Positions 23,234 through 58,515 are shown, numbered from the stretch's first letter. The stretch: 64,000 nt of DNA from Candidatus Gottesmanbacteria bacterium RBG_16_52_11 (GCA_001779095.1 MFJD01000004.1:173031-237030), one strand, 5' to 3'. The notes: generated by a model from the sequence alone, not told the origin. Numbers and translations: made by a program.

Positions 23234-23315
23234 GCGCCTATCATAGCACGGGAGGCGGGCCGGTCTTGCACAAGCCGCCGGCTATGGGCGATAATACGTG
23301 CTTGTCATACCTGTT

Positions 23316-24248
23316 ATGAGAGCAGCATTTATCAGGGCGTTGTCCCGTGCGGCGGAGAAGGATTCCCGGATCATGCTGATAACCGGTGATTTGGGATACC
23401 GATATCTCGAGCCATTCGCCGAAAAGTTTCCCGACCGATACCTCAATATCGGGGTTGCGGAAGCCAATCTGGTAACGGTAGCCGCAGGACTGGCGACTAC
23501 CGGTTTCATACCGTTTGTGTATTCAATTGCCACGTTCGCCAGCATGCGGGCATTCGAACAGATCCGCAATGATGTCAGCCTCCAGAATCTGAATGTGAAA
23601 ATTGTCGGCATCGGGGCCGGATTTGCCTATACCAAAGCCGGACCGACCCACCATTCGGTGGAGGATATTGCGCTGATACGGACACTGCCGAATATAACGG
23701 TAATCGCGCCGGTTGATACCAACCAGGCGTACAGCGCGACAATTGCGGCAGCCAAACACCGCGGTCCGGTGTATCTTCGGCTCGGCAGGAATCCGGAAAG
23801 CGGGGTATTTGCCAAACCACCGCCTTTCACCATAGGCAAAGGGACGGTTATTTCCGGCGGAAAGGATATGGCAATCCTGGCAACCGGCACCACTGTGGGA
23901 CTAGCCCATGAAATAGCCGGAAAGATATCCGGAGTGGTAAAATCACCGACCATTGCCGTTTTCCCCTCCATAGTTCCGTTGGATCATGCGCTACTGCGAA
24001 CACTGGTGCGCGGGCACAGAATTTGGGTGACGGTGGAAGAGCACCGCCAGAGCGGCGGATTCGGTACGGCCGTCGGCGAGTGGTTGCTGACTCAGACAGG
24101 CAAAATTCCGCGTCTGGTCAAAGCCGGTGCCCGGGATGCACATTCCCAATTGTCTGCTGAACATAAGGAACTGATGAAGGAAGCGGGCTTAACCACCGGT
24201 GATGTTGCCAGGCGGATACGAGCTACTTTGCGGAGTCAGAGAAGGTAA
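23316..24248 (+). CDS. transketolase, C-terminal (Pyr + C-domain) subunit of a split enzyme
   Basis: Begins MRAAFIRAL (typical of tktB-type subunits). Carries FNIGVAEANLV, FASMRAFEQIRNDV and GPTHHSVEDIALIRTLPN. The track start at 23298 is a GTG, and the ATG at 23316 is preferred. Confidence 0.8.
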   Translation: MRAAFIRALSRAAEKDSRIMLITGDLGYRYLEPFAEKFPDRYLNIGVAEANLVTVAAGLATTGFIPFVYSIATFASMRAFEQIRNDVSLQNLNVKIVGIGAGFAYTKAGPTHHSVEDIALIRTLPNITVIAPVDTNQAYSATIAAAKHRGPVYLRLGRNPESGVFAKPPPFTIGKGTVISGGKDMAILATGTTVGLAHEIAGKISGVVKSPTIAVFPSIVPLDHALLRTLVRGHRIWVTVEEHRQSGGFGTAVGEWLLTQTGKIPRLVKAGARDAHSQLSAEHKELMKEAGLTTGDVARRIRATLRSQRR

Positions 24249-29209: not shown

Positions 29210-30181
29210 ATGCGTTCCTTCTGGGAAGGAAAAAAAGTTGCCGTTACCGGGGGTACCGGATTTATCGGCAGCCATCTCGTCGAAGAACTTGTAAAGCAGG
29301 GCGCGCGGGTGACGGTGCCCACGTCTTCCGGAAATACCGGAAATCTCGGGCGTGTCATCAATCAGGTACGGATAGTCCGGGCGGACCTGACCGATCACAA
29401 ATCAGCCCGGAGAGTCTTCAGGGGTCTGGATATCGTGTTGCATCTGGCGGCAAAAGTTGCCGGCATCCTTTATAACAGCACCCATGGTGCGGAAATGTTC
29501 CGGACCAATGCGGCGCTTAACCAGACCGTTATTGACGCTGCTGCCGCAAGCGGGATAAAGCGGATGCTGGTCACTTCCAGCGCCTGCGTCTATGCCCGGT
29601 ATACTCCGCAGCCGATGCGGGAGGAATCCGGCATGGTTGATGAGCCGGAACCGACCAACGGTGGGTACGGTTGGTCCAAGCGGTTCGCGGAAGTCACCGC
29701 CGGATTATATGCCGGGCAGTTCGGCCTGGAGGTTGCCATTGCCCGTCCGTTTAACGCATACGGACCCCGGGACAACTTTGATCCGGCCATGTCCCATGTG
29801 ATTCCGGGTCTGATCACCCGGATCTATTCGGGAGAAAATCCGCTTAAAGTATGGGGATCGGGGAAGCAGACCCGGTCTTTTATATACGTCGATGATCTGG
29901 TGCGGGGGATGATGGATATCACCGAAAAATATGCGGTAGCCGATCCCGTCAACCTGGGCAGCGGTGAGGAAGTGACAATCGCACGTCTGGCCCGGATGCT
30001 GGTGAAACTGTCAGGAAAGAAGACGAAGATTATATTTGACACTTCCAAGCCCGACGGACAACCCCGGCGGCTATGCGACGTTATGTATGCGCGGAATAAG
30101 TTCGGTTTCGTAACGCGGGTAACACTCGAAGCCGGACTGGGTAAAATGCTTTTATGGTACGAACGTCACTTATCATCCTGA
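29210..30181 (+). CDS. NAD-dependent sugar epimerase/dehydratase/reductase
   Basis: VAVTGGTGFIGSHLVEEL, YGWSK (YxxxK) and NAYGPRD motifs identify the family. 323 aa. Confidence 0.8.
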   Translation: MRSFWEGKKVAVTGGTGFIGSHLVEELVKQGARVTVPTSSGNTGNLGRVINQVRIVRADLTDHKSARRVFRGLDIVLHLAAKVAGILYNSTHGAEMFRTNAALNQTVIDAAAASGIKRMLVTSSACVYARYTPQPMREESGMVDEPEPTNGGYGWSKRFAEVTAGLYAGQFGLEVAIARPFNAYGPRDNFDPAMSHVIPGLITRIYSGENPLKVWGSGKQTRSFIYVDDLVRGMMDITEKYAVADPVNLGSGEEVTIARLARMLVKLSGKKTKIIFDTSKPDGQPRRLCDVMYARNKFGFVTRVTLEAGLGKMLLWYERHLSS

Positions 30182-30843
30182 CCCGCAACGAAGTCAGCGG
30201 AATGAAGGCCATGCTGTCGCGGATTCCCTTTACCACCGTTGACGAGTACTTCCTGGTTGATTACCGCTCGACCGACGGGACGGTGGAGCTGGCCCGAAAA
30301 CATAAAATACCCGTCGTCGCCCAAAGGCATCCCGGCCGGGCGGAAGCATTCCGGATTGCGGCCGATAATGCCCGGGGGAATTATCTGATATTCTTCAGTC
30401 CTGACGGTAATGAAGATCCTTCAGACATTCCCAAGATAATCAGATTACTCAAGAAGGGGAATGACCTGGTGATTGCCAGCCGTTTCCTGCCGGGCAGCCG
30501 CAATGAGGAGGACGGGCAGACATTCAAATGGCGGGCTTGGGCAAATATGGGTTTTACCTTGCTGGCCAACCTTCTTTTCAACCGGGGCAGACCGTATGTT
30601 ACCGACTCGATCAACGGATACCGCGGTATCACAAAATCCGCGTTCGGAAAACTCGGGCTGGATGCCCAGGGTTTTGCCGTCGAATTCCAGATGACGATAC
30701 GGGCGATGAAGGCGGAACTGGCAATTACCGAATTCCCCACACTCGAAGGCCCGAGGATCGGGGGCCAAAGCACGTCTTACGCAGTACCCACGGGGCTGAA
30801 GTTTGTATATTATTTTCTCCGGGAAATATTTATCGGAGTCTGA
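30154..30843 (+). CDS. GT2 family glycosyltransferase (polyprenyl-phosphate sugar synthase-like)
   Basis: Begins MVRTSLIILTRNEVSG. Carries DYRSTDGT (the first acidic motif) and FFSPDGNEDPSDI (DxD-like). It overlaps the upstream epimerase by 28 nt. Confidence 0.7.
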   Translation: MVRTSLIILTRNEVSGMKAMLSRIPFTTVDEYFLVDYRSTDGTVELARKHKIPVVAQRHPGRAEAFRIAADNARGNYLIFFSPDGNEDPSDIPKIIRLLKKGNDLVIASRFLPGSRNEEDGQTFKWRAWANMGFTLLANLLFNRGRPYVTDSINGYRGITKSAFGKLGLDAQGFAVEFQMTIRAMKAELAITEFPTLEGPRIGGQSTSYAVPTGLKFVYYFLREIFIGV

Positions 30844-30850
30844 TTGTCCG

Positions 30851-32368
30851 TCAGGAACCGGCGTTAATATTTTCCCCGGTACGCAGGAGTTTCAAACCTG
30901 CCGGATTAGCGTATAGCCAGAAGTTGTCGTTTTTTCCCCAGAAGTACACCGCCGGTGAATGGTGGATCAGGGTAAATCCTTCGGGATCGTTTTCCGGAAG
31001 CGGAAAATCCAACAGAAGAAGGAAAGGGCGGGATTTGGGAAATGCATTTTTTGCCAGACTTACAGCTACATCGGGCGGAAGTGCATCATTTATCCGTTTA
31101 TGTCGTGCATCGATAACGTTGAACGAACCGGCCCGTTGATACTCCGGATACCAGAATTGCCTGTCATTAAAATAGACCAGCACATCTATGGTCATATAAG
31201 CGTGATATGCGGCAATATCCCAGTTTTCAATTCTGTTCCGTTTAATAAAAGCAGCCATGTCTTTTCCGCCGGAAAACGGATAACGGTAATCATTCACATA
31301 CGAAAATCCCGTGTAAATCCAGGAGATACCCAGGAGGCAACTGAAAACAAAAAGGAATATATTCCAGGATATTCTACGGATCAAATCGCGGTGCTGATGT
31401 TTGCCGGTCATCCAAAGGAAAAATATTATGGATATTAACGTGAGACCATGATGCCGGTTGTATCCGGAATACACATAAACATTGATGTAATAAAAGTAAC
31501 CCCAGGTAACCAGCGCCATCAATGTCAGAGGAATATTGTGTATGAGAATTGGGATAAGAGTGGCCAAACAAATGACAGTTCCAATCCTGATTATTTGGGA
31601 AAAGTAAGGCAACTGAATAATGTCCGGTTTGTCAATCGGGAGTGAAGGGACGATGGATTGACGGAGTACTTTCGTAAACTGGGAAGATATGTCCTGTGGT
31701 TTTGCCCAATTCACCAGCTCGGGATTCGGGGTCAGAAGCGCGGCAGTGAATACACCCTGCGCAACCATCAGCGTCAGCACTGTAAAACGGGCGACATTGA
31801 ATTTCCCATACCGGTACATCTCAAATCCGTAAAGGACCGTCAGAAATCCCGCCGGAACCAAAGAGAAAATATTTGCCTGATACAGGAGTACGATCAGCAT
31901 TCCGTATAAAACGGGTTTATCGAACCGTCTGGGGTAGATGGCGGCGACTGATAACAGAAGTGCCCAGGTCAGGACATAATTGCGCTGAACGACAGCGTAC
32001 TCATATGCCAGGAGATACGAAAAAATAAGCAGGATCTTCACTGGCAGGGGAATATTCTTATTGACAAACAGCAGGAGCCAGATAGCGAATATCGCGATGC
32101 CCGCATGGATAATGCCCATGGTTTCAAACGGCAGACCGGCTTTGGCAAACGGAGACAGGATAACAAACCAGGTAATCGGCACGCCTTCATTGGGAACATT
32201 GGCGACCATTTCCGGAATCGATGCTTCCCTGGCCCACCTCCAGGGATGGGCTTCATCCCGCCAGGGCTCATGATGGGATATGCCGAAAAGTACCAATAAG
32301 GAATAAATGGCAAAAATGATAAAGAGTACAGCATTATTCTTCGGTATATATGGCCGCTTCATGTCCAT
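30851..32368 (-). CDS. 'HEPWRDEAHPW'-family polytopic membrane protein, paralog 1 (putative GT-C glycosyltransferase)
   Basis: 505 aa. The first loop is GISHHEPWRDEAHPWRWAREAS, which has a DE catalytic-loop-like motif as in GT-C enzymes. About 11 TM segments and a C-terminal soluble domain of about 150 aa (YPFSGGKDMAAFIKRN..FWYPEY). Paralogous to the 33513 and 35191 genes. Confidence 0.5.
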   Translation of the reverse strand: MDMKRPYIPKNNAVLFIIFAIYSLLVLFGISHHEPWRDEAHPWRWAREASIPEMVANVPNEGVPITWFVILSPFAKAGLPFETMGIIHAGIAIFAIWLLLFVNKNIPLPVKILLIFSYLLAYEYAVVQRNYVLTWALLLSVAAIYPRRFDKPVLYGMLIVLLYQANIFSLVPAGFLTVLYGFEMYRYGKFNVARFTVLTLMVAQGVFTAALLTPNPELVNWAKPQDISSQFTKVLRQSIVPSLPIDKPDIIQLPYFSQIIRIGTVICLATLIPILIHNIPLTLMALVTWGYFYYINVYVYSGYNRHHGLTLISIIFFLWMTGKHQHRDLIRRISWNIFLFVFSCLLGISWIYTGFSYVNDYRYPFSGGKDMAAFIKRNRIENWDIAAYHAYMTIDVLVYFNDRQFWYPEYQRAGSFNVIDARHKRINDALPPDVAVSLAKNAFPKSRPFLLLLDFPLPENDPEGFTLIHHSPAVYFWGKNDNFWLYANPAGLKLLRTGENINAGS

Positions 32369-32937
32369 GATTTGTGGTAAAGCCGGTTCAGAATAATTAC
32401 AGCATAACCGTTGAAATAGAGGGGGAGTGAGTTTTTTTTTATCATATAAGATTTATCCGATCCGGCAATAATTCCCGAAACGAGCATCCGGTTGATTCTT
32501 TTTCGGATAATCGTATCGGTATTATATGTTTTTAAAATCTGGGCAGCAGTTATTCCCTTGTATCCAGCATTGGCAATGACAGCCAATAGTCTGATTCGGA
32601 TGGCAGATTCAAGAAGTGCTCCGAAGACGACCAGCACATAGACTCCGATAATTAACGTGTAAAGAATCAGAGCACCGATAAGTATTATCAGCTGAGCAAA
32701 TAACGGATAATAGGCCGCAATCGTTATATATCGGAAGAAAGGGAAGTAGATCAGAATCGAAATAACTGACGAGGCGACATACAACATAATAGGCCATATG
32801 TATATTTTTTCCGGCGGCAAAAACCTGACTATTACCAGGTGAATAACATAGAAAATCGAGGAAAACGCCAAGGCGTTTAATACTATCAGCATATCTAGAG
32901 ATAAGTACATATCGGGTATCATCCGCTTGACCTCCAA
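32359..32937 (-). CDS. small membrane protein with C-terminal winged-helix-like domain (type B, 192 aa)
   Basis: Four or five N-terminal TM helices, then GITAAQILKTYNTDTIIRKRINRMLVSGIIAGSDKSYMIKKN (helix-turn-helix plus wing pattern). AT-rich. Paired with the 32919-33443 gene, and homologous in architecture to the 40152-40742 gene. Confidence 0.5.
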   Translation of the reverse strand: MEVKRMIPDMYLSLDMLIVLNALAFSSIFYVIHLVIVRFLPPEKIYIWPIMLYVASSVISILIYFPFFRYITIAAYYPLFAQLIILIGALILYTLIIGVYVLVVFGALLESAIRIRLLAVIANAGYKGITAAQILKTYNTDTIIRKRINRMLVSGIIAGSDKSYMIKKNSLPLYFNGYAVIILNRLYHKSWT

Positions 32938-33443
32938 CCGATGATTCTGCGATAGATTTCAATTAGGATATACAGGAATTTGCCTTTGGTCGAAACAAAA
33001 TAAGCATCTGATTTCCGGCCAACAAAACCCATGTGTATCAGGTCGTTGATCCGGTTAGTCACGAGTTCGGTATCTGAGAACAATTTTTTCAGTTCCTTTT
33101 CAGTAGCCCGTCCGCGCTTTACCAGGTAAAGATATATTTTTGCCGACGGGCTGTAATCGCCGTATACGGCGCTGCCGGAATAAAGGATATAAATGACAGA
33201 TATCACAACGTATATGACAGTAGCCGTCAGCGGTAACGGATACATCAGCAACGCCGCCCAACCTGAGTGACCCAAACGGGGTAAAGTATTAAGTACCATC
33301 CAGTTCAGTAGACCACCTGATATAAAAAACAGAAAAATACTCCGAGGCAGATAAATCCGGCCGGAAGCTGCTGCGTTGTGGATTAGGATATGTGCCCCGG
33401 CCACCAGGAGAAATATGGTGATACTTACAAAAATATCCAGCAT
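32919..33443 (-). CDS. small membrane protein with C-terminal winged-helix (MarR/ArsR-like) domain (type A, 174 aa)
   Basis: Three N-terminal TM helices, then SAKIYLYLVKRGRATEKELKKLFSDTELVTNRINDLIHMGFVGRKSDAYFVSTKGKFLY, a typical wHTH. Counterpart of the 39652-40155 gene. Confidence 0.55.
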   Translation of the reverse strand: MLDIFVSITIFLLVAGAHILIHNAAASGRIYLPRSIFLFFISGGLLNWMVLNTLPRLGHSGWAALLMYPLPLTATVIYVVISVIYILYSGSAVYGDYSPSAKIYLYLVKRGRATEKELKKLFSDTELVTNRINDLIHMGFVGRKSDAYFVSTKGKFLYILIEIYRRIIGWRSSG

Positions 33444-33512: not shown

Positions 33513-34982
33513 TCATAAGGCAATACCGCGGCCGTATAACCATAAATTTTCCGTTTCGTTCGACCAGAAGTATGTAGCACCCGATGTATGAAGCAGCGAA
33601 TATCCTGCGGATTCCTCATCCGGGAGGGGAAATGACAGAAGCAGTAATACCGGTTTTCCTGGCGGAAAAGCGCGGTCTATCCGTCGGAAGGCATCATACG
33701 TCGAGAGACTGAAAAATAGTGCGTGATACCGATTATCACTGGTATTATAGTATCCCTTCGCACCGAATTCGGGGTACCAAAACTGTTTGTTATTCAGGTA
33801 CGGCAGAACGGCCAGCCCGTGGGATGCAATATAAGCCACAGTATCATATTTATCCAGGTTATTCTGTTTCAGGTAGGTAGCCATATCCCGGGCACCGGAA
33901 GAAGCATAAGTATAGTCAGCACTGTATATATACTTCGTATACCCGAGGGAAACAGTAAATAATACTGCCAGACTGACGAGTAAAACACTACGAACAGCTT
34001 GTCTCACCGGGGTCAACGGCTTCTGGTCGATTCCGCCTAACCAGAAAAAAACAACAAGATATATCAGCAGCAGTCCGTGGTGCCGGATTGATCCTTTATG
34101 GACGTACAGATTAACATACAACCACCAGGAGACGGTAGAAACGCACAGGATAAAAATATGCGTATTCCTCCAGAGAAAAAGCAGAATACCAGGGATCAGT
34201 AGTGCAGTCAGAATAGTAATAATAGTATTAATTTCCGGGGATAGGAAAGGTGCTGCAGGGTGCTGGGGAAATGAAGGAACAATTGCGTTACGGATGATAA
34301 CCGGCAGCTCAAGTAATGGATTGTCGGGAGGGTAATTAATAATCCGAGCAGCACCGTTTCGGAGAGTCAGAAACGTAAAAGCGGCGCTGACCGATAAAAC
34401 CGCAACAGATAGGATAGTCCCTGGTGCCAGTAATTTTTTCCGTAAGATGTCAAAAACAAATAACATCATGAACACCCCTGCAGGAAGTATACTGAATGAG
34501 TTCGTCTGAAACAGCAAAGAGATAAGCAAACTGTAAAGGATGGGTTTAGTAAGCCTCTTATCATACAGGGCTGCGATGGCAAATGTGAGTAAAACAGTCA
34601 GTACATAATTTCTTGATATAACCGAGTATTCATATGCCATATAGTAGGTAAACGGGAATAGGATTTTCAGAAGCATCGGTAATTTCGCGAATCGGAGTAA
34701 TATGTAGACTGCGGTTATGGCAAGTCCCGCATGGATAAATGACATTGTCAGGTAAGGAAAGCCGGCAGGCGCGAAAGGCTTGAGGATCAAAAACCAAAGT
34801 ATCGGCGTGCCTTCATTCCGGATATCTTCTGAAACAATAATACCAAGCGGAGTCTCCCGGGCTTTCATCCAAGGATGTGCCTCGTCCCTCCAGGGTTCAT
34901 GGTACAGAACTCCGAAGATGATGAGGCTGGCGTATATAAACCAAATTGCCACGTACGGCAGAGTCTTCCGCGGAAATGACAT
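33513..34982 (-). CDS. 'HEPWRDEAHPW'-family polytopic membrane protein, paralog 2
   Basis: 489 aa with GVLYHEPWRDEAHPWMKARETP. Same architecture as the 30851 and 35191 genes. Confidence 0.5.
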   Translation of the reverse strand: MSFPRKTLPYVAIWFIYASLIIFGVLYHEPWRDEAHPWMKARETPLGIIVSEDIRNEGTPILWFLILKPFAPAGFPYLTMSFIHAGLAITAVYILLRFAKLPMLLKILFPFTYYMAYEYSVISRNYVLTVLLTFAIAALYDKRLTKPILYSLLISLLFQTNSFSILPAGVFMMLFVFDILRKKLLAPGTILSVAVLSVSAAFTFLTLRNGAARIINYPPDNPLLELPVIIRNAIVPSFPQHPAAPFLSPEINTIITILTALLIPGILLFLWRNTHIFILCVSTVSWWLYVNLYVHKGSIRHHGLLLIYLVVFFWLGGIDQKPLTPVRQAVRSVLLVSLAVLFTVSLGYTKYIYSADYTYASSGARDMATYLKQNNLDKYDTVAYIASHGLAVLPYLNNKQFWYPEFGAKGYYNTSDNRYHALFFSLSTYDAFRRIDRAFPPGKPVLLLLSFPLPDEESAGYSLLHTSGATYFWSNETENLWLYGRGIAL

Positions 34983-35190: not shown

Positions 35191-36678
35191 TCAATTCACA
35201 TCCCCATAGGAATACAAAAAGAATTCCTCGGGCCAACTGGACCATATATAAGAGCCGCGGGATTCATACAGCAGCTCGTACCCATCGTAACCTCCCGGGA
35301 AAGTGTATTCGATCGGTGAGGACAGAAGGAGCAAATGGGGCTTCGTACCGAAAGTTGCTTTTATCCTAACCAATGCATCGGCGGGTTTGAGCACATCCGC
35401 CGGTTTATGATACCGGACGTCGAATAAATTATAATATCCGGTTTTCCCGTATTCCGGATACCAGAACTGTTTATCCTTAAAATACGGTAATACGGCAATT
35501 CCGTGGGAACTGCGGTATGCAACTATATCCATATGCAGGAGATTACGAGTCACAATGAATTCCGCCGTATTTTTTGATCCTGAAAAATTGGAAGTATAGT
35601 CCTGGCTATAGAGATAAGCGGTATACGCCCATGAAATAACAAGGAGTATCGAGAGAGAAGTGAAGAAAATGGCTTTCACACCCGATTCAAATTTTGATTT
35701 CCCTGCCTGTACTGTTTCCGAAAACCACCATAAGAAAATAATATAGACCTGAAACAGACCATGGTGTCTGGTATTTCCCGTATGGATAAATGCATTAATA
35801 AGGAGAAGCCATCCAAGACTTGCTGCTGTGATGAGGAGAGCTGACCCGTTCCGTAATACTTTCACAAAAAGAGCAATGAAAAGTATTGCCGTAATAATTG
35901 ATATGGCACCGTCCATTGATTGCACATCAAGGTTCAGGGGACGGTAATGGTCAAACGAGGGGATGAACGCGTTTCGGAGTATAACTGGTATTTGTTCCAG
36001 AGGATATTTGGGTATATCCGGATTTATTGAATATGCCGGGTCGGGTATTAGCATGAAGAATGTAATCAAGGCACTGGCGAACATTATGGATAAAGCTGCC
36101 AGGCGTTGCGGTGATAGTAAACGGCTTCTCATTAATTGAAAGCCGTTAAGTACCATTAATACACCTGCGGGTACGATACTGTAGAGATTCGTCTGGAACA
36201 GGAGGGCAACCAGTGTTGCATAGCGCAGGGGTCTATCGAACCGTAGGGCATGCAAAGAAGCAATGGCGAACAGAAGCACAACTGTAAGTACGTAATTCCT
36301 GGCAATAATTGAGTACTCATACGCGAAAAAATAGGAAAAAAGCATCAATACCTTGACCACCGAGGGAAATTTACCGTACTTCAGGAGCAAAAAAGCAAAC
36401 GTAATCGCGATGACACCATGGAGAAAATTCATCGTCTGATACGGAAATCCGAATTTGGCAAACGGCACCAGCATCATAAACCAGAGAACCGGAGTGCCTT
36501 CGTATTTGGCGTTATCGATGATAGTTGGAATGGAATCCTGACGTGCCATCATCCAGGCATGTGCCTCGTCCCTCCAGGGTTCATGATGAAATACTCCGAA
36601 GAGTATCAGCGCAATGTAAAGCAGAAAAACAATAGTTAATAACGTTTGTTTGCGGATCAGAACCGGTATAAGCCTCAT
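35191..36678 (-). CDS. 'HEPWRDEAHPW'-family polytopic membrane protein, paralog 3
   Basis: 495 aa with GVFHHEPWRDEAHAWMMARQDS and a C-terminal FWYPEYGKTGYYN block shared with paralogs 1 and 2. Confidence 0.5.
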   Translation of the reverse strand: MRLIPVLIRKQTLLTIVFLLYIALILFGVFHHEPWRDEAHAWMMARQDSIPTIIDNAKYEGTPVLWFMMLVPFAKFGFPYQTMNFLHGVIAITFAFLLLKYGKFPSVVKVLMLFSYFFAYEYSIIARNYVLTVVLLFAIASLHALRFDRPLRYATLVALLFQTNLYSIVPAGVLMVLNGFQLMRSRLLSPQRLAALSIMFASALITFFMLIPDPAYSINPDIPKYPLEQIPVILRNAFIPSFDHYRPLNLDVQSMDGAISIITAILFIALFVKVLRNGSALLITAASLGWLLLINAFIHTGNTRHHGLFQVYIIFLWWFSETVQAGKSKFESGVKAIFFTSLSILLVISWAYTAYLYSQDYTSNFSGSKNTAEFIVTRNLLHMDIVAYRSSHGIAVLPYFKDKQFWYPEYGKTGYYNLFDVRYHKPADVLKPADALVRIKATFGTKPHLLLLSSPIEYTFPGGYDGYELLYESRGSYIWSSWPEEFFLYSYGDVN

Positions 36679-36774: not shown

Positions 36775-37518
36775 ATGCGTCTTTATAAAGAGGAAAAACA
36801 CGAAGTCATATATCAGACCCAGGTTAATGATCCGTTTTTTAATTACGTAACGGAACTCATGTTTTCCCGGATGACCGGGCCAGGCCGCCTGCTGGATATG
36901 GGTTGCGGCAGCGGACGTAACATCATATTGGCTGCACAAAGGGGATTTGAGGGAGTCGGAATAGATATCAACAGTAAGTCACTTGAGGTTGCCGGGGAAT
37001 ATGCCAAAAGGATGGGCGTTGATAAGAAGACCAGGTTTATCAGGGCAGACCTGAGAAACCTGACATTGCTGGGATTAGGCAAGTTTGATTACGTGATGAT
37101 GCAGGAAGTGATCGAGCATGTCGAGGATTATCAGGCGCTGATCGATCTGTCATACCGGTTGCTTAAGAAAGGCGGCAGACTACTGTTAAGTACGCCGAAC
37201 GATCCGTCTCAGTGGAACCTGCTGGATGAGTATGCTGAACATGTGCGTCGCTTCAGACCGGTGGAGATACGTAGTGCGCTGAAGGAATTTTCCAGGATAG
37301 AAATATTTACTGTTGGGTTTCCCATACAGAGACTGACGATAACCATCTATGATCTGATGCTGAGAATCCTAAAGCGCCAGCATAAAGCCAAACTGTTCCG
37401 CCGCAACGACTTATTCCACGCGTTGTATTTCACTATAGGCGCTGCAGTCATGAATTTCGACGGACTATTTAACGGAATTCACATGGGAACTACTATAGTG
37501 GCGGGTGCGGAGAAGTGA
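36775..37518 (+). CDS. class I SAM-dependent methyltransferase
   Basis: LLDMGCGSGRN (motif I), DYVMMQEVIEHV and LLLSTPN motifs identify the family. Confidence 0.7.
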   Translation: MRLYKEEKHEVIYQTQVNDPFFNYVTELMFSRMTGPGRLLDMGCGSGRNIILAAQRGFEGVGIDINSKSLEVAGEYAKRMGVDKKTRFIRADLRNLTLLGLGKFDYVMMQEVIEHVEDYQALIDLSYRLLKKGGRLLLSTPNDPSQWNLLDEYAEHVRRFRPVEIRSALKEFSRIEIFTVGFPIQRLTITIYDLMLRILKRQHKAKLFRRNDLFHALYFTIGAAVMNFDGLFNGIHMGTTIVAGAEK

Positions 37519-37577: not shown

Positions 37578-38282
37578 ATGACCAGAAATCCCGGCGTCAG
37601 TATTGTCGTCATGGCGTATAACGAGGAACAGAACCTCGGTCCTACTATCGACGGGATCATGCGGGAAGTCCCCAAGGCAACCCGGAATTATGAAATCATA
37701 ATCGTCGAAGACGGCAGCACCGACGGGACGCTTGCAGTGGCAAAACAATATGCCCGGAGAAACCGTCGCATCAGGATAGTCCGGCACCGGATAAATTTCG
37801 GATTCGGAACTTCGTTTAAGGACGGTGTTGCCGCCGCGGAAAAAAAATACGTAATCGGTTTCCCCGGTGATAACGACACGTCACCGGTGTCCCTGAGACA
37901 GATTATCGGGCGCGCAAATGACCGGACAGTCGTTATTTCCTATCCAATCGACTGGAAACAGCGTTCCCTGGCGCGGCACATTATTTCCAGAAGCGTCGTG
38001 ATCCTGTTTAACCTCCTGTTTGGGATGCGACTCCGGTATTATACCGGACAGTTCCTGTGCCGGACTGGCGAACTGCAGAGGATGAATTTAAAGTCCAAAG
38101 GATTTGCCGTATACGCCGAAGCCAAAGTCCGGTTCCGGTATATGGGGATGAAATTTGAAGAAATACCGTTTGAGCATATCGGCCGGAAATTCGGTACCAC
38201 CAAAGCGATATCGTTCAGAAGCCTCTTAGAGACTCTGGAAACGATCGGAATACTCTTAACCGATATTTTTTTCAGAAAGTAA
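37578..38282 (+). CDS. GT2 family glycosyltransferase (DPM1/GtrB-like), paralog of 41787-42539
   Basis: VSIVVMAYNEEQNLGPTIDGIMREVP..IIVEDGSTDGT. About 60% identical to the 41787 gene product. Confidence 0.75.
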   Translation: MTRNPGVSIVVMAYNEEQNLGPTIDGIMREVPKATRNYEIIIVEDGSTDGTLAVAKQYARRNRRIRIVRHRINFGFGTSFKDGVAAAEKKYVIGFPGDNDTSPVSLRQIIGRANDRTVVISYPIDWKQRSLARHIISRSVVILFNLLFGMRLRYYTGQFLCRTGELQRMNLKSKGFAVYAEAKVRFRYMGMKFEEIPFEHIGRKFGTTKAISFRSLLETLETIGILLTDIFFRK

Positions 38283-38373: not shown

Positions 38374-39579
38374 ATGAAATTATTGCGGACGCTTTTACTA
38401 ACAACAAAAGCTTATGATCCACTGTTGGCTTTACGTGGTTATTCAATTATTCTGATTGTCTGGTGGCACGTCTATTCATATTACCCAGTATATGCTTTTC
38501 ATAATGCCAGCCCTAACTACTGGTTACTATCATCAAGCCCATATGTAGGAGTCTGGACGTTTTTTATACTTTCGGGCTACTTAATCGGAAAGGGTTTTTT
38601 TGCCGGAAGATATACATTATCACCCCGAAATCTAATCCGTTTTTATATACATCGGTTAATGAAGATTGCGCCTTTATACTACCTGACAATAATATATATC
38701 TATTTTGTTCATATAATTCCCTATGGATATACCGAAACCAAACTTGCTCCATTTTTTTTCTTTAATGCAGCCAATCTGATTAATGACAGGTATTTGGGAT
38801 ATCTCTGGTTTGTATCGGTAGTGATTCAGCTTTATATCCTGTCTCCGCTAATCTATCTTGTGAACCGTATGATCCGGTTATTTCGAGTACCTGTATACGT
38901 ACCGTGGTTAATCATATTGGTATATTTTTTACTAATTCCGTTCACCTTTTCCATGCCATATTTACTTCAGAACAGGATGTATTATGATATCACTTTCTAT
39001 TCTTCCGTAGCAGTTAATTTAAGCTTCTTTCTTATCGGATTTTTCATAAATATACTATTTACGAATAAAAACAGTAGTGAGCAACAGGAAAGAATTACAG
39101 GTCGCCCGGCAGTAAAAAAAGTGATGGAAATAGGAGCCAACGTAAGTCTCGTGATACTATATATTATTTCCTCTTATGTTACCGAAAAATTTCTAATCGA
39201 TTATAATTCTAATCTTTTTAATATTATGTTCATTTTGCCTATTTTAACCGTAAGCATAGTCATATATTTCATAGTCACATCAGAGGGTGAAAACCATAAG
39301 AGAAACCGACACAGACAGATACAAGCTAATCACCGGACAATAAATATATTTGAAAAAGTCGGTCAATATTCCTATGGAGTATATTTGATTCACTACCTGG
39401 TTATTTATAGGCTTAAGTATAATTGCCATGCCAACTGTACAATTGCGGATTTACTTTATAAGCAATTACTAGTGTTCGGATGGAGCATGATCATAACAGT
39501 TATTATATACACGATTGCTGGAACTCTGAGAAAACGGATAATCCGAATCAAGCTGAATCCGTTTAAGTATTTACTGTGA
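38374..39579 (+). CDS. acyltransferase family 3 (membrane O-acyltransferase, OafA/WecH-like)
   Basis: LRGYSIILIVWWHV is the acyltransferase-3 N-terminal signature (RG..ILLVV..H). About 10 TM segments. The gene is strongly AT-rich compared with its flanks. Confidence 0.65.
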   Translation: MKLLRTLLLTTKAYDPLLALRGYSIILIVWWHVYSYYPVYAFHNASPNYWLLSSSPYVGVWTFFILSGYLIGKGFFAGRYTLSPRNLIRFYIHRLMKIAPLYYLTIIYIYFVHIIPYGYTETKLAPFFFFNAANLINDRYLGYLWFVSVVIQLYILSPLIYLVNRMIRLFRVPVYVPWLIILVYFLLIPFTFSMPYLLQNRMYYDITFYSSVAVNLSFFLIGFFINILFTNKNSSEQQERITGRPAVKKVMEIGANVSLVILYIISSYVTEKFLIDYNSNLFNIMFILPILTVSIVIYFIVTSEGENHKRNRHRQIQANHRTINIFEKVGQYSYGVYLIHYLVIYRLKYNCHANCTIADLLYKQLLVFGWSMIITVIIYTIAGTLRKRIIRIKLNPFKYLL

Positions 39580-39651: not shown

Positions 39652-40155
39652 ATGATTAGCGTACTTGCCAGCATCCTACTGTTTATTGCAACTCTAGTGA
39701 TTCATATTATGGTCAGGCGTCCCAATGCCCGGAGTATCGGAATCGGAAAGGTGGTAGCGGATTTTGCGGTTGCCTGTATCCTAGCGGCAGTGGCAATTGT
39801 GGCACTTGGGGAATGGTTCAGGGACATCACGCCACCGCTGCCGCTGACCGGAATTGCGATATACGGATTTGCGGCTTTTTCGTATGTGTCTTTTTCCGCT
39901 AGCCCGTTTCTGGGGGATGAAAGCCCTTCGTCCGTAATCGTACTTTTGGCGAGGGAGAAGGGCAGTATGACGCTTGACGATGTATTATCCGAATTCCCGG
40001 ACCGGTCGATTGTCGACAAGCGGATTGCGGATCTGATCAGTACCGGCTGGATAAAAAGGACCCGGAAGGGACTGGTGGCAACCGGGACAGGCCGGATTAT
40101 CGCTGCAGCGTTTGGTACATACCGGCGGTTACTGGGATTAGGGGAGACGGGATGA
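39652..40155 (+). CDS. small membrane protein with C-terminal winged-helix domain (type A, 167 aa)
   Basis: Three TM helices, then SVIVLLAREKGSMTLDDVLSEFPDRSIVDKRIADLISTGWIKRTRKGLVATGTGRII (wHTH). A 4-nt overlap with the next gene. Confidence 0.55.
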   Translation: MISVLASILLFIATLVIHIMVRRPNARSIGIGKVVADFAVACILAAVAIVALGEWFRDITPPLPLTGIAIYGFAAFSYVSFSASPFLGDESPSSVIVLLAREKGSMTLDDVLSEFPDRSIVDKRIADLISTGWIKRTRKGLVATGTGRIIAAAFGTYRRLLGLGETG

Positions 40156-40742
40156 ATATTGACCGGCTGATAATAATCCAGGCGATAACCAGCTCAGCCG
40201 CAATGATGGCGCTGCAGACGTTCGTAATGTCCGGGAAATACAAACAGGCAATCCTCAGGAGCCTTATGGCTGCATTCGGATACGCCACAATTTGCCATTA
40301 CCTGATATCCGCGGCAGTTCTAGCGTATTTACTAAACAGCGGACCGGTGCCGGATTTGTTACCGCTTTATGCTTATCCGGTAATATCATTCATTCTCTTC
40401 GGACTGGTCTGTTTTTCCGTTGTCCTGACGGTTTTCGGCCTCACAGTTACGTCACTCCGGATCCATATCCTGACCGAAATAGCTGATGCAGGAGAACCCG
40501 GAATCGCAGAGACTGCACTTGAGAAGAAATATTCCAAGCGGGAAGTCATGGTTGTGCGGCTGATCCGGCTGACCGAATCCGGCGAACTTGTGAATCGGGG
40601 CCGGCGGTATTTCCCGGTTTACCACCGCTCCTACTTTCTGCTGCATACATTTATCCTGATGTTATACAATCGGCTGTATAATCTGCCCGGGTATGCCCGG
40701 TATTGGAAGAGCGTGGGAGCGAAGTTATTGACGGGAAAATAA
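40152..40742 (+). CDS. small membrane protein with C-terminal winged-helix-like domain (type B, 196 aa)
   Basis: Four TM helices, then IAETALEKKYSKREVMVVRLIRLTESGELVNRGRRYFPV. Counterpart of the 32359-32937 gene. Confidence 0.5.
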   Translation: MNIDRLIIIQAITSSAAMMALQTFVMSGKYKQAILRSLMAAFGYATICHYLISAAVLAYLLNSGPVPDLLPLYAYPVISFILFGLVCFSVVLTVFGLTVTSLRIHILTEIADAGEPGIAETALEKKYSKREVMVVRLIRLTESGELVNRGRRYFPVYHRSYFLLHTFILMLYNRLYNLPGYARYWKSVGAKLLTGK

Positions 40743-40800
40743 TTATTCTGATTATTCTAATTAACCTAATTATTCTAAGCATCCCACAATTTATTTACCG
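40742..40800 (+). promoter_or_regulatory. ATTATTCTAA motif array (3 copies) immediately upstream of epimerase gene
   Basis: attattctgATTATTCTAAttaacctaATTATTCTAAgc...tttattt lies 7 nt before the ATG at 40807. Related arrays occur at 42521-42567 and 46453-46500, with single copies at 16934 and 38291. Confidence 0.45.
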
Positions 40801-40806
40801 GATTTT

Positions 40807-41790
40807 ATGAACGTACTGGTTACCGGCGCGGGGGGTTTCATCGGCAGTCACATGGTGGATCACTTACTGGAAAAGGGCCACAGTGTTACCGGCTTGGATA
40901 TATTTTCCCGGGGTAAGGAAGAGCATCTACCGTCGAAACAGTATGGAAACCTGCTCCGGCTGATCCAGGCAGACGTGTCTGACCGCACGGCGCTACGGGA
41001 GAAATATTTCCGGGGCGTCGACTGGGTGTTTCACTTCGCCGGCCGCTCCAGTAACGTCAAGTCGCTCGAGAATCCGCCGGAGTACCATGCCGTCAATGCC
41101 ACCGGTACGCTGAACATGCTGATTGCTGCCCATAAGGCTAAGGTGAAACGGTTCGTCTACGCGGCATCGTATTCGTGTTACGGCCAGCCACGAAAGTTTC
41201 CTACCCCGGAAACGGCGCTACTCAAGCCGGAATTCCCGTATGCCCTGACTAAGCTGGCAGGCGAACGCTATACACTGCACTGGCATCGGGCATTCGGATT
41301 GCCGACGATATCCCTGAGGATGACCAGCGTTTATGGGCCGAAAATCCGGACCGGTGGGAACTTCGGGCCAGTAGTCTCACTTTTTGTCGGGCAGAAAACG
41401 GACAGGAAGCCGTTTACAGTAGCCGGTGACGGCAGCCAGAGCCGGGATTTCGTGTATATCGATGACGTGGTTGAAGCGTTTCTGGCTGCTGCCCGGTCGG
41501 ATGTTGCCGGGGAAGTATTTAACGTCGGCAGCGGCCGGTCAGTCAGCCTCAATCGACTGGTGGAACTGCTAGGCGGTCCGGTGACATATGTCTCCAGAAG
41601 GCCGGGAGAAGTCAATAAAACTCTGGCGGATATAAAGAAAATTAAAAAATATTTGGGGTGGACTCCAAAGGTACGTTTTAACCACGGAATCAGAAGGGTG
41701 CTTGAAAGTGCAGGACAAACGGTGAAGCCCGGATTTAATGTCAGAACAATCCGTCCGTCAACAAACAGGCGGAAAGGCGGACACGTATGA
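40807..41790 (+). CDS. NAD-dependent sugar epimerase/dehydratase
   Basis: LVTGAGGFIGSHMVDHL, YALTK and SVYGPK motifs identify the family. About 55% identical to the 26732 gene product. Confidence 0.8.
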   Translation: MNVLVTGAGGFIGSHMVDHLLEKGHSVTGLDIFSRGKEEHLPSKQYGNLLRLIQADVSDRTALREKYFRGVDWVFHFAGRSSNVKSLENPPEYHAVNATGTLNMLIAAHKAKVKRFVYAASYSCYGQPRKFPTPETALLKPEFPYALTKLAGERYTLHWHRAFGLPTISLRMTSVYGPKIRTGGNFGPVVSLFVGQKTDRKPFTVAGDGSQSRDFVYIDDVVEAFLAAARSDVAGEVFNVGSGRSVSLNRLVELLGGPVTYVSRRPGEVNKTLADIKKIKKYLGWTPKVRFNHGIRRVLESAGQTVKPGFNVRTIRPSTNRRKGGHV

Positions 41791-42539
41791 AGAAGGTTAG
41801 TAAATTGAGCAGGGCGAAGACAGGAAAAACCGGTACCGGTATCATCGTGATGGCATACAACGAAGAAAAGAATCTGGGTCCGGCCCTGGACGGTCTGTTG
41901 CGGGAAGTCCCCAAAGTTACCGATGACTTCGAGATACTGGTCATAGACGACGGATCGGATGACTCAACCGGCAATGTTGCCGATAAGTACGGCCGGAAAA
42001 GCCGGCATATCCGGGTGGTCCACCACCGGGAAAACCGGGGATTCGGCCGTTCTTTCCGCAGTGGTGTCAGCCTGACCCGGAAGCGGTACGTGGTGGGATT
42101 CCCCGGTGATAACGATACATCACCCGCATCCCTGGCGCAGCTAGTCAGGCGGGCAAACGACCGCACGGTCGTGACCTGTTATCCGACGGACCTCAGTAAC
42201 CGTTCGGCATTCCGCCATCTGATATCCAAGTCGTTCGTGGTGCTGATGAACGCTGTTTTCAGAATGAACCTGAAATACTTCAACGGGTCATTCATATACC
42301 TCACCGAAGCGGTTAAAAACCTGAATCTTAAGTCAGACGGATTTGCCATATACGCCGAAGCCAAAGTCCGGCTGCGGCATCTGGGATATCCTTTTGAGGA
42401 AATTCCGTTCATTTATACGGGCAGAAAGCACGGTACGTCCAAAGCAGTAACCGGCAAAAGCGTCCGGGAGACTCTGGAAACGATCATTACTTTAGTGAAG
42501 GATATATATCTTAAAAAAAGAATAAATTATTCTAATTAA
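41787..42539 (+). CDS. GT2 family glycosyltransferase (DPM1/GtrB-like)
   Basis: GIIVMAYNEEKNLGPALDGLLREVP..LVIDDGSDDST. The C-terminal 6 codons (RINYSN) are encoded by the ATTATTCTAATTAA repeat motif. Confidence 0.75.
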   Translation: MKKVSKLSRAKTGKTGTGIIVMAYNEEKNLGPALDGLLREVPKVTDDFEILVIDDGSDDSTGNVADKYGRKSRHIRVVHHRENRGFGRSFRSGVSLTRKRYVVGFPGDNDTSPASLAQLVRRANDRTVVTCYPTDLSNRSAFRHLISKSFVVLMNAVFRMNLKYFNGSFIYLTEAVKNLNLKSDGFAIYAEAKVRLRHLGYPFEEIPFIYTGRKHGTSKAVTGKSVRETLETIITLVKDIYLKKRINYSN

Positions 42540-42567
42540 CCTAATTGACCTGATTATTCTAAAAAAG
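42521..42567 (+). promoter_or_regulatory. ATTATTCTAA motif array (2 copies) upstream of epimerase gene
   Basis: aataaATTATTCTAAttaacctaattgacctgATTATTCTAAaaaag lies 4-19 nt before the ATG(s) at 42572/42587. Confidence 0.4.
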
Positions 42568-44320: not shown

Positions 44321-44845
44321 ATGCTAAAAAAATACCCGTCCGCTAAAAGCACGACGTTTTATTTCAACGAAAGCATTATCACCATTGACACCGGTCTGAT
44401 CAGAAGGCTGAAGGATTCATCCCGGAAGGACAAGTTAGGCAGGGCGCGGGTATGCCTCCATTCCGGACCGGATGCAGCGGTACAGGAAATGATCATCGCC
44501 ATGGACCGGAAAACGTATGTCAGGCCGCACCGGCACCACACGAAAACCGAGTCCACACATATTATCGAGGGAGAACTGCTGATAATACTTTTTGACGATA
44601 CCGGTAAACCGGTCCGGCGGATCAGTTTGCGGGCTGGAAAAACGGGGCAACCGTTTGCCTGCCGCATACCGCAGATGACCTGGCATACCCAGATACCTCA
44701 GACCCAAACCGCCGTGATCCACGAAATCATCAGCGGTCCTTTCAGTTCCGGCAGTTCAGATTTTGCTACCTGGGCACCGGAGGAGGGGGATACGGAAGCC
44801 TCAGACCGGTACATCAGAAAAATTAACCGCATAGCCCGCAGATAG
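44321..44845 (+). CDS. cupin-fold protein, WbuC-like (sugar-pathway associated)
   Basis: 174 aa. RVCLHSG...VRPHRHH.TESTHIIEGELLI is a cupin metal-binding His cluster arranged as in the WbuC family. The call is tentative. Confidence 0.45.
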   Translation: MLKKYPSAKSTTFYFNESIITIDTGLIRRLKDSSRKDKLGRARVCLHSGPDAAVQEMIIAMDRKTYVRPHRHHTKTESTHIIEGELLIILFDDTGKPVRRISLRAGKTGQPFACRIPQMTWHTQIPQTQTAVIHEIISGPFSSGSSDFATWAPEEGDTEASDRYIRKINRIARR

Positions 44846-58498: not shown

Positions 58499-58515
58499 TG
58501 TATGCTATACGTTGT

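What the first reader, a model, noticed from the sequence alone, without database searches (positions are those of the whole stretch)
32359..33443. Conserved two-gene module of membrane-anchored winged-helix proteins, present twice in the island
Two loci (32919-33443 / 32359-32937 on the minus strand, and 39652-40155 / 40152-40742 on the plus strand) each encode the following:
- a 'type A' protein of about 170 aa (3 TM helices plus a clear MarR/ArsR-like wHTH, e.g. IYLYLVKRGRATEKELKKLF...VTNRINDLIHMGFVGRK);
- an overlapping 'type B' protein of about 195 aa (4-5 TM helices plus an HTH-like tail).

Gene order, sizes and the overlapping start/stop are conserved, while the sequences have diverged. 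Membrane-tethered one-component regulators, or wHTH domains repurposed as protein or sugar-nucleotide binding modules, embedded next to GT-C and acyltransferase genes are not a described component of glycosylation loci. They could couple envelope state to expression of the cassette, and might bind the nearby ATTATTCTAA arrays.
Basis: partly seen in the sequence, partly recalled or inferred. Interest (0 to 1): 0.75.

Follow-up and report, generated by a model that had tools for sequence, protein, structure and literature searches.

The report
Paired membrane winged-helix glycosylation subunits
Two copies of a conserved gene pair encode small membrane proteins (three membrane helices plus a cytoplasmic winged-helix domain). 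The pair always travels with a membrane-anchor-less sugar-lipid synthase and usually a GT-C glycosyltransferase, so it is more likely an undescribed accessory subunit of surface glycosylation than a gene regulator.

Summary
The window comes from Candidatus Gottesmanbacteria RBG_16_52_11, a CPR bacterium. Both loci encode an A protein (174 and 167 aa) followed by a B protein (about 187 and 196 aa) with an ATGA stop/start overlap.

- **Family size.** A belongs to an uncurated family of 671 clusters at 50% identity, with no Pfam or NCBIfam model.
- **Paralogy.** B is a paralogue of A (hhalign 98.6%). It has three TM helices, not 4-5.
- **Pairing.** In all 16 other loci fetched (15 independent), A is followed directly by B.
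- **Context.** In about nine of these loci a 230-250 aa GT2 without TM helices lies directly upstream; this GT2 resembles ArnC and DPM synthase. In four to five loci a GT-C enzyme follows B.

The best reading is that A and B form a heterodimeric membrane partner that anchors and activates the anchor-less polyprenyl-phosphate glycosyltransferase. That would make them analogues of GacJ, DPM2/DPM3 or Ppm2. They may also flip the lipid-linked sugar.

The transcription-regulator and array-binding reading is not supported. The ATTATTCTAA arrays are absent from the 14 related loci searched. No function has been tested experimentally.

The parts
32919..33443 (-). A1: 174-aa type A protein. It has three TM helices (2-26, 33-53, 71-93), a winged helix (99-150) and a C-terminal amphipathic helix (152-168).
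32359..32922 (-). B1: type B paralogue, about 187 aa from the ATG at 32922, which overlaps the A1 stop as ATGA. The longest ORF runs from TTG 32937 (192 aa).
   Evidence: B-profile hit at E 2.7e-55. NCBI aa.
39652..40155 (+). A2: 167-aa type A protein, second copy.
   Evidence: A-profile hit at E 1.7e-45. NCBI A2Z33_04020.
40152..40742 (+). B2: 196-aa type B protein with an ATGA overlap with A2. It has three TM helices; TM3 is continuous with winged-helix helix 1, followed by the winged helix and two C-terminal helices.
37578..38282 (+). GT2 of 234 aa without a TM helix. It is the proposed catalytic partner of A2/B2 and belongs to the GT2 subfamily that sits directly upstream of A in other genomes.
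   Evidence: Pfam PF00535. No TM segment. Aligns over residues 7-222 to ArnC 10-223 and to P. furiosus DPM synthase 24-239. 33-56% identical to the GT2 next to A in L001-L005, L008, L010 and L013.
38374..39579 (+). Acyltransferase_3 membrane protein inserted between the GT2 and A2. It is not present at this position in the related cassettes.
   Evidence: Pfam PF01757, E 2.2e-29. Contexts.
41787..42539 (+). Second GT2 of the same TM-less subfamily (250 aa), two genes downstream of B2.
   Evidence: 56% identical to the GT2 at 37578-38282.
30851..32368 (-). 505-aa polytopic membrane protein directly downstream of B1; its start overlaps the B1 stop. It occupies the position held by PMT_2/GT-C enzymes in related cassettes. 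It has no Pfam or PDB sequence match.
   Evidence: Position analogy.
33513..34982 (-). 489-aa paralogue of the previous protein, directly upstream of A1.
   Evidence: 39% identical.
35191..36678 (-). 495-aa third paralogue of the same polytopic membrane protein.
30154..30843 (+). 229-aa TM-less GT2 of a more distant type, convergent with the A1/B1 operon.
   Evidence: 22-27% identical to the others.

Best explanation
A and B are paralogous small membrane proteins. Each has an extracytoplasmic N-terminus, three TM helices, a cytoplasmic winged-helix domain held at the membrane surface, and a C-terminal interfacial helix. I propose that they form a 1:1 heterodimer that is the non-catalytic membrane part of a split polyprenyl-phosphate glycosyltransferase.

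**Proposed mechanism**
- The catalytic GT2 encoded beside them is a complete ArnC/GtrB/DPM-synthase-type GT-A domain. It stops where those enzymes begin their transmembrane helices.
- The A/B heterodimer tethers this GT2 to the membrane through the two winged-helix domains.
- A/B present the lipid carrier phosphate. The conserved His-x4-Arg/Lys at the cytoplasmic end of TM1 in A, mirrored by a His/Gln-x4-Arg motif in B, is the candidate site.
- A/B thereby stimulate synthesis of the polyprenyl-P-sugar, which the neighbouring GT-C enzymes use outside the membrane.
- This is the role played by GacJ for GacI, by Rv3632 for PpgS, by Ppm2 for Ppm1 and by DPM3/DPM2 for DPM1.

**Shown**
- The fold, the topology inferred from charge bias, A/B paralogy, strict A-to-B pairing with tight spacing, synteny with a specific TM-less GT2 subfamily and with GT-C genes, and the absence of TM helices in the GT2.

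**Inferred**
- Heterodimer formation, binding of the GT2 by the winged helices, lipid-phosphate binding, and stimulation of catalysis.
For: 1. **Pairing.** Sixteen of 16 fetched loci and both window loci have A immediately followed by B. The gap is -4 to +15 nt in 13 measured pairs, which suggests translational coupling and equal stoichiometry.
2. **Paralogy.** A and B are paralogues with the same architecture, as expected for a pseudo-symmetric heterodimer.
3. **GT2 upstream.** A GT2 of 229-254 aa lies directly upstream of A in L001-L005, L010, L013 and probably L008. It is often overlapping or within 12 nt of A, and it is within two genes in L007, L009 and both window loci. These GT2s form one subfamily of 33-83% identity.
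4. **The GT2 lacks an anchor.** Most of these GT2s have no hydrophobic segment of TM strength; three have a single borderline peak. The window GT2 aligns over residues 7-222 to ArnC 10-223, and the ArnC TM helices are residues 230-305.
5. **Topology.** Charge bias puts loop 1 and the winged-helix domain in the cytoplasm, where the GT2 acts. K+R is 3.4 in loop 1 against 0.9 in loop 2, and 14.5 in the C-terminal domain.
6. **Precedents.**
   - GacJ is 113 aa with three TM helices, is encoded immediately downstream of the TM-less GacI, forms a complex with it and stimulates it. Rv3632 does the same for PpgS (bioRxiv 10.1101/180810).
   - A Dpm1 without a TM domain needs Dpm3 (PMC7728079).
   - Ms-Ppm1 binds the membrane protein Ms-Ppm2 (PMC3460810).
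Against: - No physical interaction was tested.
- There is no detectable sequence homology to GacJ/DUF2304, DPM2 or DPM3, so the argument rests on analogy and synteny.
- The window holds at least five TM-less GT2 genes but only two A/B pairs. Either A/B are shared between GT2s or some GT2s work without them.
- In L012, L015 and L016 no GT2 is seen next to the pair, although these contigs are short.
- The winged-helix domain is strongly basic (mean net charge +6.8). Its closest structural matches for A are DNA-binding regulators.
- The cassettes and the whole 64-kb window lack a recognised flippase. That fits the flippase rival equally well.
Confidence: 0.42

Rival explanations
1. A/B form a heterodimeric flippase or scramblase for polyprenyl-phosphate-sugars. 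The six TM helices would move the lipid-linked sugar made by the GT2 to the outer leaflet for the GT-C enzymes. This fills the slot held by GtrA/GtcA dimers or the ArnE/ArnF pair in multi-component transmembrane glycosylation systems. The winged helices would dock the synthase. This reading can coexist with the anchoring role.
For: - The cassette order GT2-A-B-GT-C (PMT_2) in L002, L003 and L008, with a 541-aa polytopic protein in L001, puts A/B in the position of the flippase in three-component systems.
- GtrA-type flippases are small proteins with 3-4 TM helices thought to act as dimers (PMC8035078).
- ArnE/ArnF is likewise a pair of paralogous small membrane proteins (my own knowledge).
- No GtrA, Wzx/MOP or EamA-type protein was found among the proteins scanned in the 64-kb window. 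The window nevertheless carries two PMT_2 enzymes, four sub-threshold YfhO-like proteins and at least five further large polytopic proteins without family matches.
- Polar residues are conserved in or at the TM helices of both paralogues: His18 and Arg/Lys23 in A; the invariant Asp and an His/Gln-x4-Arg motif in B.
Against: - There is no homology to any known flippase family.
- Known small flippases carry no soluble domain, and three TM helices per subunit is at the low end of the range.
- The most constant neighbour is the GT2, not the GT-C. L005, L007, L010 and L013 have no GT-C adjacent.
- A flippase could be encoded elsewhere in the genome.
Confidence: 0.25
2. A/B are membrane-tethered one-component transcription regulators whose winged-helix domains bind DNA, for example the 9-nt ATTATTCTA arrays. 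They would couple envelope state to expression of the glycosylation genes.
For: - The fold is a genuine winged helix, closest to MarR, ArsR, PadR and AspA.
- The domain is basic (+6.8) and has an invariant Arg in the recognition helix.
- The arrays are enriched in the window (15 against 4.2 expected), and one begins at the B2 stop codon.
Against: - The arrays are absent from the 14 related loci searched. In the window they precede three epimerase paralogues, so they may be copied along with those modules.
- None of the four window proteins reaches the curated cut-off of any regulator family, and the 113 A members give only weak matches.
- The genes are wedged between enzyme genes with 1-10 nt spacers. 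They exist as an obligate paralogue pair, duplicated and diverged within one island. That pattern fits subunits co-evolving with enzymes.
- The winged helix follows TM3 after 5 residues or fewer in A and as a continuous helix in B. It is followed by an interfacial helix, so it is pinned to the membrane.
- Asp134 in the recognition helix is the majority residue (62 of 113 sequences), which is unusual for a DNA reader.
Confidence: 0.07
3. A/B are accessory subunits of the GT-C enzymes rather than of the GT2. They might act as assembly, stabilising or acceptor-selecting partners.
For: - B is followed within 1-5 nt by a PMT_2 or polytopic protein in L001, L002, L003 and L008, and in window locus 1 the downstream gene overlaps B1's stop.
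- In window locus 1 the pair is flanked on both sides by polytopic paralogues.
- In L014 a large protein ends where A starts.
Against: - Several loci have no GT-C next to the pair (L005, L007, L010, L013, L015).
- The conserved soluble domain is cytoplasmic, whereas GT-C catalysis is extracytoplasmic.
- The window has more than ten candidate GT-C proteins but only two pairs.
Confidence: 0.1

Closest known systems
GacJ (DUF2304, PF10066) with GacI in Streptococcus pyogenes; Rv3632 with PpgS in M. tuberculosis
   Same: [quoted passage not shown]
- Encoded immediately downstream of a GT2 of about 230 aa that lacks TM helices and makes a polyprenyl-P-sugar for a GT-C enzyme.
- GacJ forms a complex with the GT2 and raises its catalytic efficiency (bioRxiv 10.1101/180810; PMC8035078).
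   Different: - No sequence match to DUF2304.
- A/B come as an obligate pair of paralogues.
- Each carries a winged-helix domain of about 55 residues plus a further helix, giving 165-196 aa against 113 aa.
- No fusion with GT2 was seen among the 150 best family members, whereas GacJ-GacI fusions are known.
DPM2/DPM3 subunits of eukaryotic dolichol-phosphate-mannose synthase; Ms-Ppm2 with Ms-Ppm1
   Same: - A catalytic GT2 without a TM domain depends on separately encoded membrane proteins for anchoring, stability and activity.
- Two small membrane subunits serve one catalytic subunit (PMC7728079; PMC3460810).
   Different: - DPM2 and DPM3 have two TM helices each. They are not paralogues of each other, and DPM3 binds DPM1 through a coiled-coil tail, not a winged helix.
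- Ppm2 is an Lnt-type acyltransferase.
- No homology to any of these was found.
GtrA/GtcA-type flippases and the ArnE/ArnF pair
   Same: [quoted passage not shown]
- Encoded with a GT2 polyprenyl-P-sugar synthase and a GT-C transferase in multi-component transmembrane glycosylation systems (PMC8035078).
- ArnE/ArnF is a heterodimer of paralogues (own knowledge).
   Different: - No Pfam match to GtrA or EamA.
- Those flippases have no cytoplasmic domain.
- Their partner GT2 enzymes (GtrB, CsbB, ArnC) carry their own TM helices.
MarR/ArsR/PadR-type winged-helix transcription regulators (e.g. AspA of pNOB8, RosR, MarR)
   Same: - The same alpha1-beta1-alpha2-alpha3-beta2-beta3 winged-helix fold, followed by a C-terminal helix as in PadR and AspA.
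   Different: - Those regulators are soluble homodimers.
- Here the domain is fused directly behind three TM helices, occurs in a heteromeric pair, and lies in an enzyme operon.
- Sequence scores of the window proteins stay far below every family cut-off, and family members give only weak matches.

Membership tests
Winged-helix (wHTH) fold | alpha1-beta1-alpha2-alpha3-beta2-beta3 topology superposable on solved winged-helix domains | tested here: met
MarR/ArsR/PadR/TrmB transcription regulators | Sequence match above the curated family threshold | tested here: not met
   - Best Pfam hits for the window proteins are 13-17 bits against cut-offs of 22-35.
- NCBIfam Sta1 and Lrs14 score 16-18 bits against cut-offs of 80-90.
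- Among 113 family members only weak HTH_45 (20 members) and DUF1803 (18 members) hits appear, best E about 5e-5.
MarR/ArsR/PadR/TrmB transcription regulators | Sequence-specific DNA binding and a conserved operator | tested here: inconclusive
   - DNA binding cannot be tested with these tools.
- The proposed operator arrays are absent from the 14 related loci searched.
GacJ / DUF2304 accessory subunit of polyprenyl-P GT2 | Small three-TM membrane protein encoded directly next to a GT2 lacking TM helices | tested here: met
   - Three TM helices.
- GT2 directly upstream in L001-L005, L010, L013 and probably L008.
- The GT2 lacks TM helices.
GacJ / DUF2304 accessory subunit of polyprenyl-P GT2 | Sequence membership in PF10066 (DUF2304) | tested here: not met
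   - There was no DUF2304 hit for the four window proteins at E<=10.
- There was none for the 113 A members at E<=0.01.
- No profile-profile test against DUF2304 could be run, because no GacJ sequence was available.
GacJ / DUF2304 accessory subunit of polyprenyl-P GT2 | Forms a complex with the GT2 and stimulates it | not testable with these tools
GtrA-type or ArnE/ArnF-type polyprenyl-P-sugar flippase | Sequence membership (PF04138 GtrA, or EamA/SMR) | tested here: not met
   No such hits.
GtrA-type or ArnE/ArnF-type polyprenyl-P-sugar flippase | Small dimeric membrane protein encoded between or beside the GT2 synthase and the GT-C transferase | tested here: met
   GT2-A-B-PMT_2 order in L002, L003 and L008, and GT2-A-B-polytopic in L001.
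GtrA-type or ArnE/ArnF-type polyprenyl-P-sugar flippase | Translocation of the lipid-linked sugar | not testable with these tools
   This needs a biochemical assay.
Multi-component transmembrane glycosylation system (GT-A synthase, membrane partner or flippase, GT-C) | Co-located polyprenyl-P GT2 and GT-C genes | tested here: met
   - Window: GT2 at 30154, 37578, 41787 and 10461; PMT_2 at 25425 and 58291; YfhO-like C-termini, below threshold, at 15, 1777, 8336 and 17904.
- Related loci.
- The three polytopic paralogues next to A1/B1 have no GT-C sequence match. Their GT-C status is inferred from position only.

The most novel reading that the evidence does not exclude
A/B define a new family of heterodimeric polyprenyl-phosphate-sugar translocators. 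They would physically couple synthesis to flipping: the two cytoplasmic winged helices dock the anchor-less GT2, and the six-helix membrane core hands the finished lipid-linked sugar across the bilayer to GT-C enzymes. This would be a synthase-flippase machine with no homology to GtrA, Wzx or ArnE/F. It would also be the first case of a winged-helix domain as an integral part of a lipid-carrier glycosylation complex.
Probability: 0.2. Interest if true: 0.85.

Novelty: new variant of a known kind. Interest (0 to 1): 0.6.

Why it matters
Extracytoplasmic glycosylation in all domains of life depends on making a polyprenyl-phosphate-sugar and moving it across the membrane. The accessory and flipping components are the least understood steps of that pathway.

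- **A sizeable unnamed family.** This family has 671 clusters at 50% identity and is not curated in Pfam or NCBIfam. It marks a recurrent cassette of an anchor-less GT2, A, B and often a GT-C enzyme. The cassette occurs in a CPR bacterium and in uncultured organisms with 34-60% G+C.
- **A repurposed DNA-binding fold.** If A/B are the anchor and activator, a DNA-binding fold has been recruited as a docking module in a membrane enzyme complex. This would be an independent solution to the problem solved by GacJ and by DPM2/DPM3.
- **A possible new flippase class.** If they also flip the lipid intermediate, they would be a new flippase class.
- **Practical use.** Either way, they give a handle for annotating glycosylation islands in CPR genomes. 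They also offer a compact system for structural work.

Tried and rejected
- **Word-indexed homology searches.** Searches with A1, B1 and the 113-sequence alignment returned almost only self or a handful of hits. The exhaustive HMMER scan was needed.
- **Pattern scans.** The genome and metagenome collections gave only one and three loci. The first attempt, with the full alignment, failed for lack of a conserved stretch.
- **Structure tools.**
  - The AFDB50 fold library was not available.
  - B2 was therefore modelled with an alignment made mostly of A-family sequences, which biases it towards the A fold.
- **Negative homology tests.**
  - The three polytopic paralogues next to A1/B1 against PMT_2 neighbours from other loci gave no relation (hhalign). 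Against PDB sequences they also gave nothing.
  - The A profile against a GT2 that has its own C-terminal TM domain (L009) gave no relation.
  - The B profile against the PDB gave only a weak TMEM175 match, taken as TM-composition noise.
- **Rejected ideas.**
  - A third copy of the module is not present. The 174-aa ORF at 44321-44845 is not a member.
  - The arrays are not a conserved partner of A/B.
- **Taxonomy.** The taxonomic range of the family could not be established because nearly all members are unnamed metagenome proteins.
Full report
**1. What is in the sequence**

The window is from Candidatus Gottesmanbacteria bacterium RBG_16_52_11, a member of the Candidate Phyla Radiation (CPR), on a contig of 266,770 bp. 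The four ORFs exist as described:
- A1: 32919-33443, minus strand, 174 aa.
- B1: 32359-32937, minus strand, longest ORF 192 aa.
- A2: 39652-40155, plus strand, 167 aa.
- B2: 40152-40742, plus strand, 196 aa.

A1 and A2 align end to end at 27% identity, E 1e-19. B1 and B2 are 31% identical over 117 residues, E 2e-10.

A2 and B2 overlap as ATGA. For B1, an ATG at 32922 overlaps the A1 stop in the same ATGA arrangement. This start keeps an Asp that is invariant in the B family. The NCBI start (177 aa) would remove that Asp.

**2. The family is real, widespread and unnamed**

Pfam and NCBIfam give only sub-threshold hits to assorted winged-helix families: TrmB, DUF1803, HVO_A0261_N, Sta1, Lrs14 and TFIIIC B-block. 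Word-indexed searches returned only the query itself.

An exhaustive HMMER scan of 1.84 billion representatives with the A1+A2 profile found 671 clusters at E<=1e-3 and 184 at E<=1e-10. Nearly all of the 150 listed are 150-180 aa and most match full length.

Scanning 113 members against Pfam gave no family above threshold. There were only weak HTH_45 hits (20 members) and DUF1803 hits (18 members). Almost all members are unnamed metagenome proteins. The fetched loci range from 34 to 60% G+C. Literature searches found no description of such proteins.

**3. Structure**

With a 113-sequence alignment, AlphaFold2 models A1 at mean pLDDT 92.2 and pTM 0.78. The elements are:
- Three TM helices: 2-26, 33-53 and 71-93.
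- A five-residue link carrying the conserved G-D-E-S-P-S motif.
- A canonical winged helix: H99-110, strand 112-114, H115-119, H125-137, hairpin 141-150.
- A C-terminal amphipathic helix, 152-168, ending in the conserved Y-R-x-x-L-G-W motif.

Independently of the models, A and B are homologous. hhalign gives probability 98.6% and E 7.8e-16 over 144 columns spanning TM1 to the wing. Each HMM finds the other family at about 1e-4 to 1e-12.

Charge bias is clear across both families:

| Region | K+R, A family | K+R, B family |
|---|---|---|
| N-terminus | about 0 | 0.2 |
| Loop 1 | 3.4 | 2.6 |
| Loop 2 | 0.9 | 0.6 |
| C-terminal domain | 14.5 | 15.4 |

The N-terminus is therefore outside and the winged helix is cytoplasmic.

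**4. Conservation as a unit, and genomic context**

I fetched 16 loci carrying an A homologue, 15 of them independent. Profile searches over all ORFs show exactly one A and one B per locus, two pairs in the window, and no further copies.

B always follows A. The gap is -4 to +15 nt in 13 measured pairs.

Directly upstream of A, often overlapping it, lies a GT2 of 229-254 aa. This holds in L001-L005, L010, L013 and probably L008. In L007, L009 and both window loci a GT2 lies within two genes.

Directly downstream of B lies a PMT_2 (GT-C) enzyme in L002, L003 and L008, and a 541-aa polytopic protein in L001. The spacers are 1-5 nt.

The GT2s next to A form one subfamily at 33-83% identity, which includes the window genes at 37578 and 41787. 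Most have no hydrophobic segment of TM strength; three show a single borderline peak. The subfamily members end just after the G-x-S-K motif and one amphipathic helix. The window GT2 aligns over residues 7-222 with ArnC 10-223 and with Pyrococcus DPM synthase 24-239. The ArnC TM helices are residues 230-305 (PMC12690121). The cassette GT2 is therefore a polyprenyl-phosphate-GT-type catalytic domain without its membrane anchor.

The window as a whole is a large glycosylation island:
- At least five TM-less GT2s.
- Two PMT_2 proteins and four proteins with YfhO-like C-termini (below threshold).
- At least five further large polytopic proteins without family matches.
- Seven epimerases, plus methyltransferases and an acyltransferase.
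- No GtrA, Wzx or EamA-type flippase among the proteins scanned.

**5. How it most likely works**

The anatomy and synteny match a known solution to a known problem. A GT2 that must act on a membrane lipid but has no anchor is served by a separately encoded small membrane protein. The precedents are:
- GacJ (113 aa, three TM helices) is encoded immediately downstream of GacI, forms a complex with it and raises its efficiency. Rv3632 does the same for PpgS (bioRxiv 10.1101/180810).
- Dpm1 without a TM domain needs Dpm3 and is tuned by Dpm2 (PMC7728079).
- Ms-Ppm1 binds the membrane protein Ms-Ppm2 (PMC3460810).

I therefore propose that A and B form a pseudo-symmetric heterodimer. Its cytoplasmic winged helices would dock the GT2. 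Its TM core would present the carrier-lipid phosphate; the candidate site is the conserved His-x4-Arg/Lys at the cytoplasmic end of TM1 in A, with a related His/Gln-x4-Arg motif in B.

This is inference. No interaction was tested, and there is no sequence homology to GacJ, DPM2 or DPM3.

**6. Rivals**

- **Flippase.** A flippase role is nearly as consistent with the evidence, either as an analogue of a GtrA dimer or of ArnE/ArnF. A/B occupy the flippase slot between the GT2 and the GT-C, and no other flippase is visible. This reading is compatible with the anchoring role.
- **Accessory to the GT-C.** This is less likely because several loci lack an adjacent GT-C and the conserved soluble domain is cytoplasmic.
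- **Transcription regulator.** This reading is the weakest.
  - In its favour, the fold is right and the domain is basic (+6.8).
  - Against it, the ATTATTCTA arrays are absent from the 14 related loci searched.
  - In the window the arrays sit upstream of three epimerase paralogues.
  - The genes are embedded between enzyme genes with minimal spacers.
  - The winged helix is pinned to the membrane at both ends.

**7. Verdict**

The regulator and array-binding idea is not.

[quoted passage not shown] Its architecture has not been described before. About one chance in five remains that it is a new kind of synthase-coupled flippase.

Noticed in passing
window 40742-40778, 42526-42562, 46456-46492: Three intergenic blocks of four tandem 9-nt units (ATTATTCTA, ATTAACCTA and similar). 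Each lies about 10-30 nt upstream of an NAD-epimerase paralogue (starts at 40807, 42572 and 46510). The motif is enriched: 15 matches with at most one mismatch against 4.2 expected. It is absent from the 14 related loci searched. It may be a promoter or operator element copied with the epimerase modules, or a genome-specific repeat.
   Followed up: partly
window 13034-13350: A second family of short tandem arrays with an 8-nt unit (AATACCTA, 4-6 copies each). It is embedded in a repeat of 77-nt period (13036-13199) in the long intergenic region between 12790 and 13429. The function is unknown.
   Followed up: no
window 30851-32368, 33513-34982, 35191-36678 (all minus strand); L010 52-1557: Three paralogous polytopic membrane proteins of 489-505 aa (39% identical). 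They share an H-E-P-W-R-D-E-A-H-P-W motif after TM1. They have no Pfam, NCBIfam or PDB sequence match and no hhalign relation to the PMT_2 neighbours of other cassettes. They occupy the GT-C position and may be an uncurated GT-C family.
   Followed up: partly
window 1-29200 and 58291-59757: The island carries many further large polytopic proteins. Four have only their C-termini matching YfhO, below threshold (starts at 15, 1777, 8336, 17904). Two are PMT_2 (25425, 58291). Several have no hit at all (5089, 6212, 20972, 27762). No recognised flippase of the GtrA, Wzx or EamA type was found among the proteins scanned in the 64 kb.
   Followed up: partly
window 20078-20986, 23298-24248, 50943-51788: Split transketolase genes (N-terminal TPP-binding parts, and pyrimidine-binding plus C-terminal parts) lie inside the glycosylation island. 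A PfkB kinase fused to a cytidylyltransferase (44899-46440), a SIS-domain protein and APH-like kinases are also present. Together they hint at synthesis of an unusual activated sugar.
   Followed up: no
window 32359-32937 (B1): The public annotation (177 aa, A2Z33_03985) starts B1 at an internal Met and drops a family-invariant Asp. An ATG at 32922 that overlaps the A1 stop as ATGA is the more likely start.
   Followed up: yes
L006 405-2146: In this metagenome contig the GT2, A and B genes are each broken into two ORFs by frameshifts. This is either assembly error or a decaying cassette.
   Followed up: no
L001 (CAZYQZ010000087.1): The only hit in the GTDB species-representative genomes is a 5.9-kb contig of a MAG labelled 'uncultured Gammaproteobacteria' with 36% G+C. 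It carries a complete GT2-A-B-polytopic-methyltransferase cassette. The methyltransferase resembles the window gene at 36775-37518. The bin assignment may be wrong.
   Followed up: no
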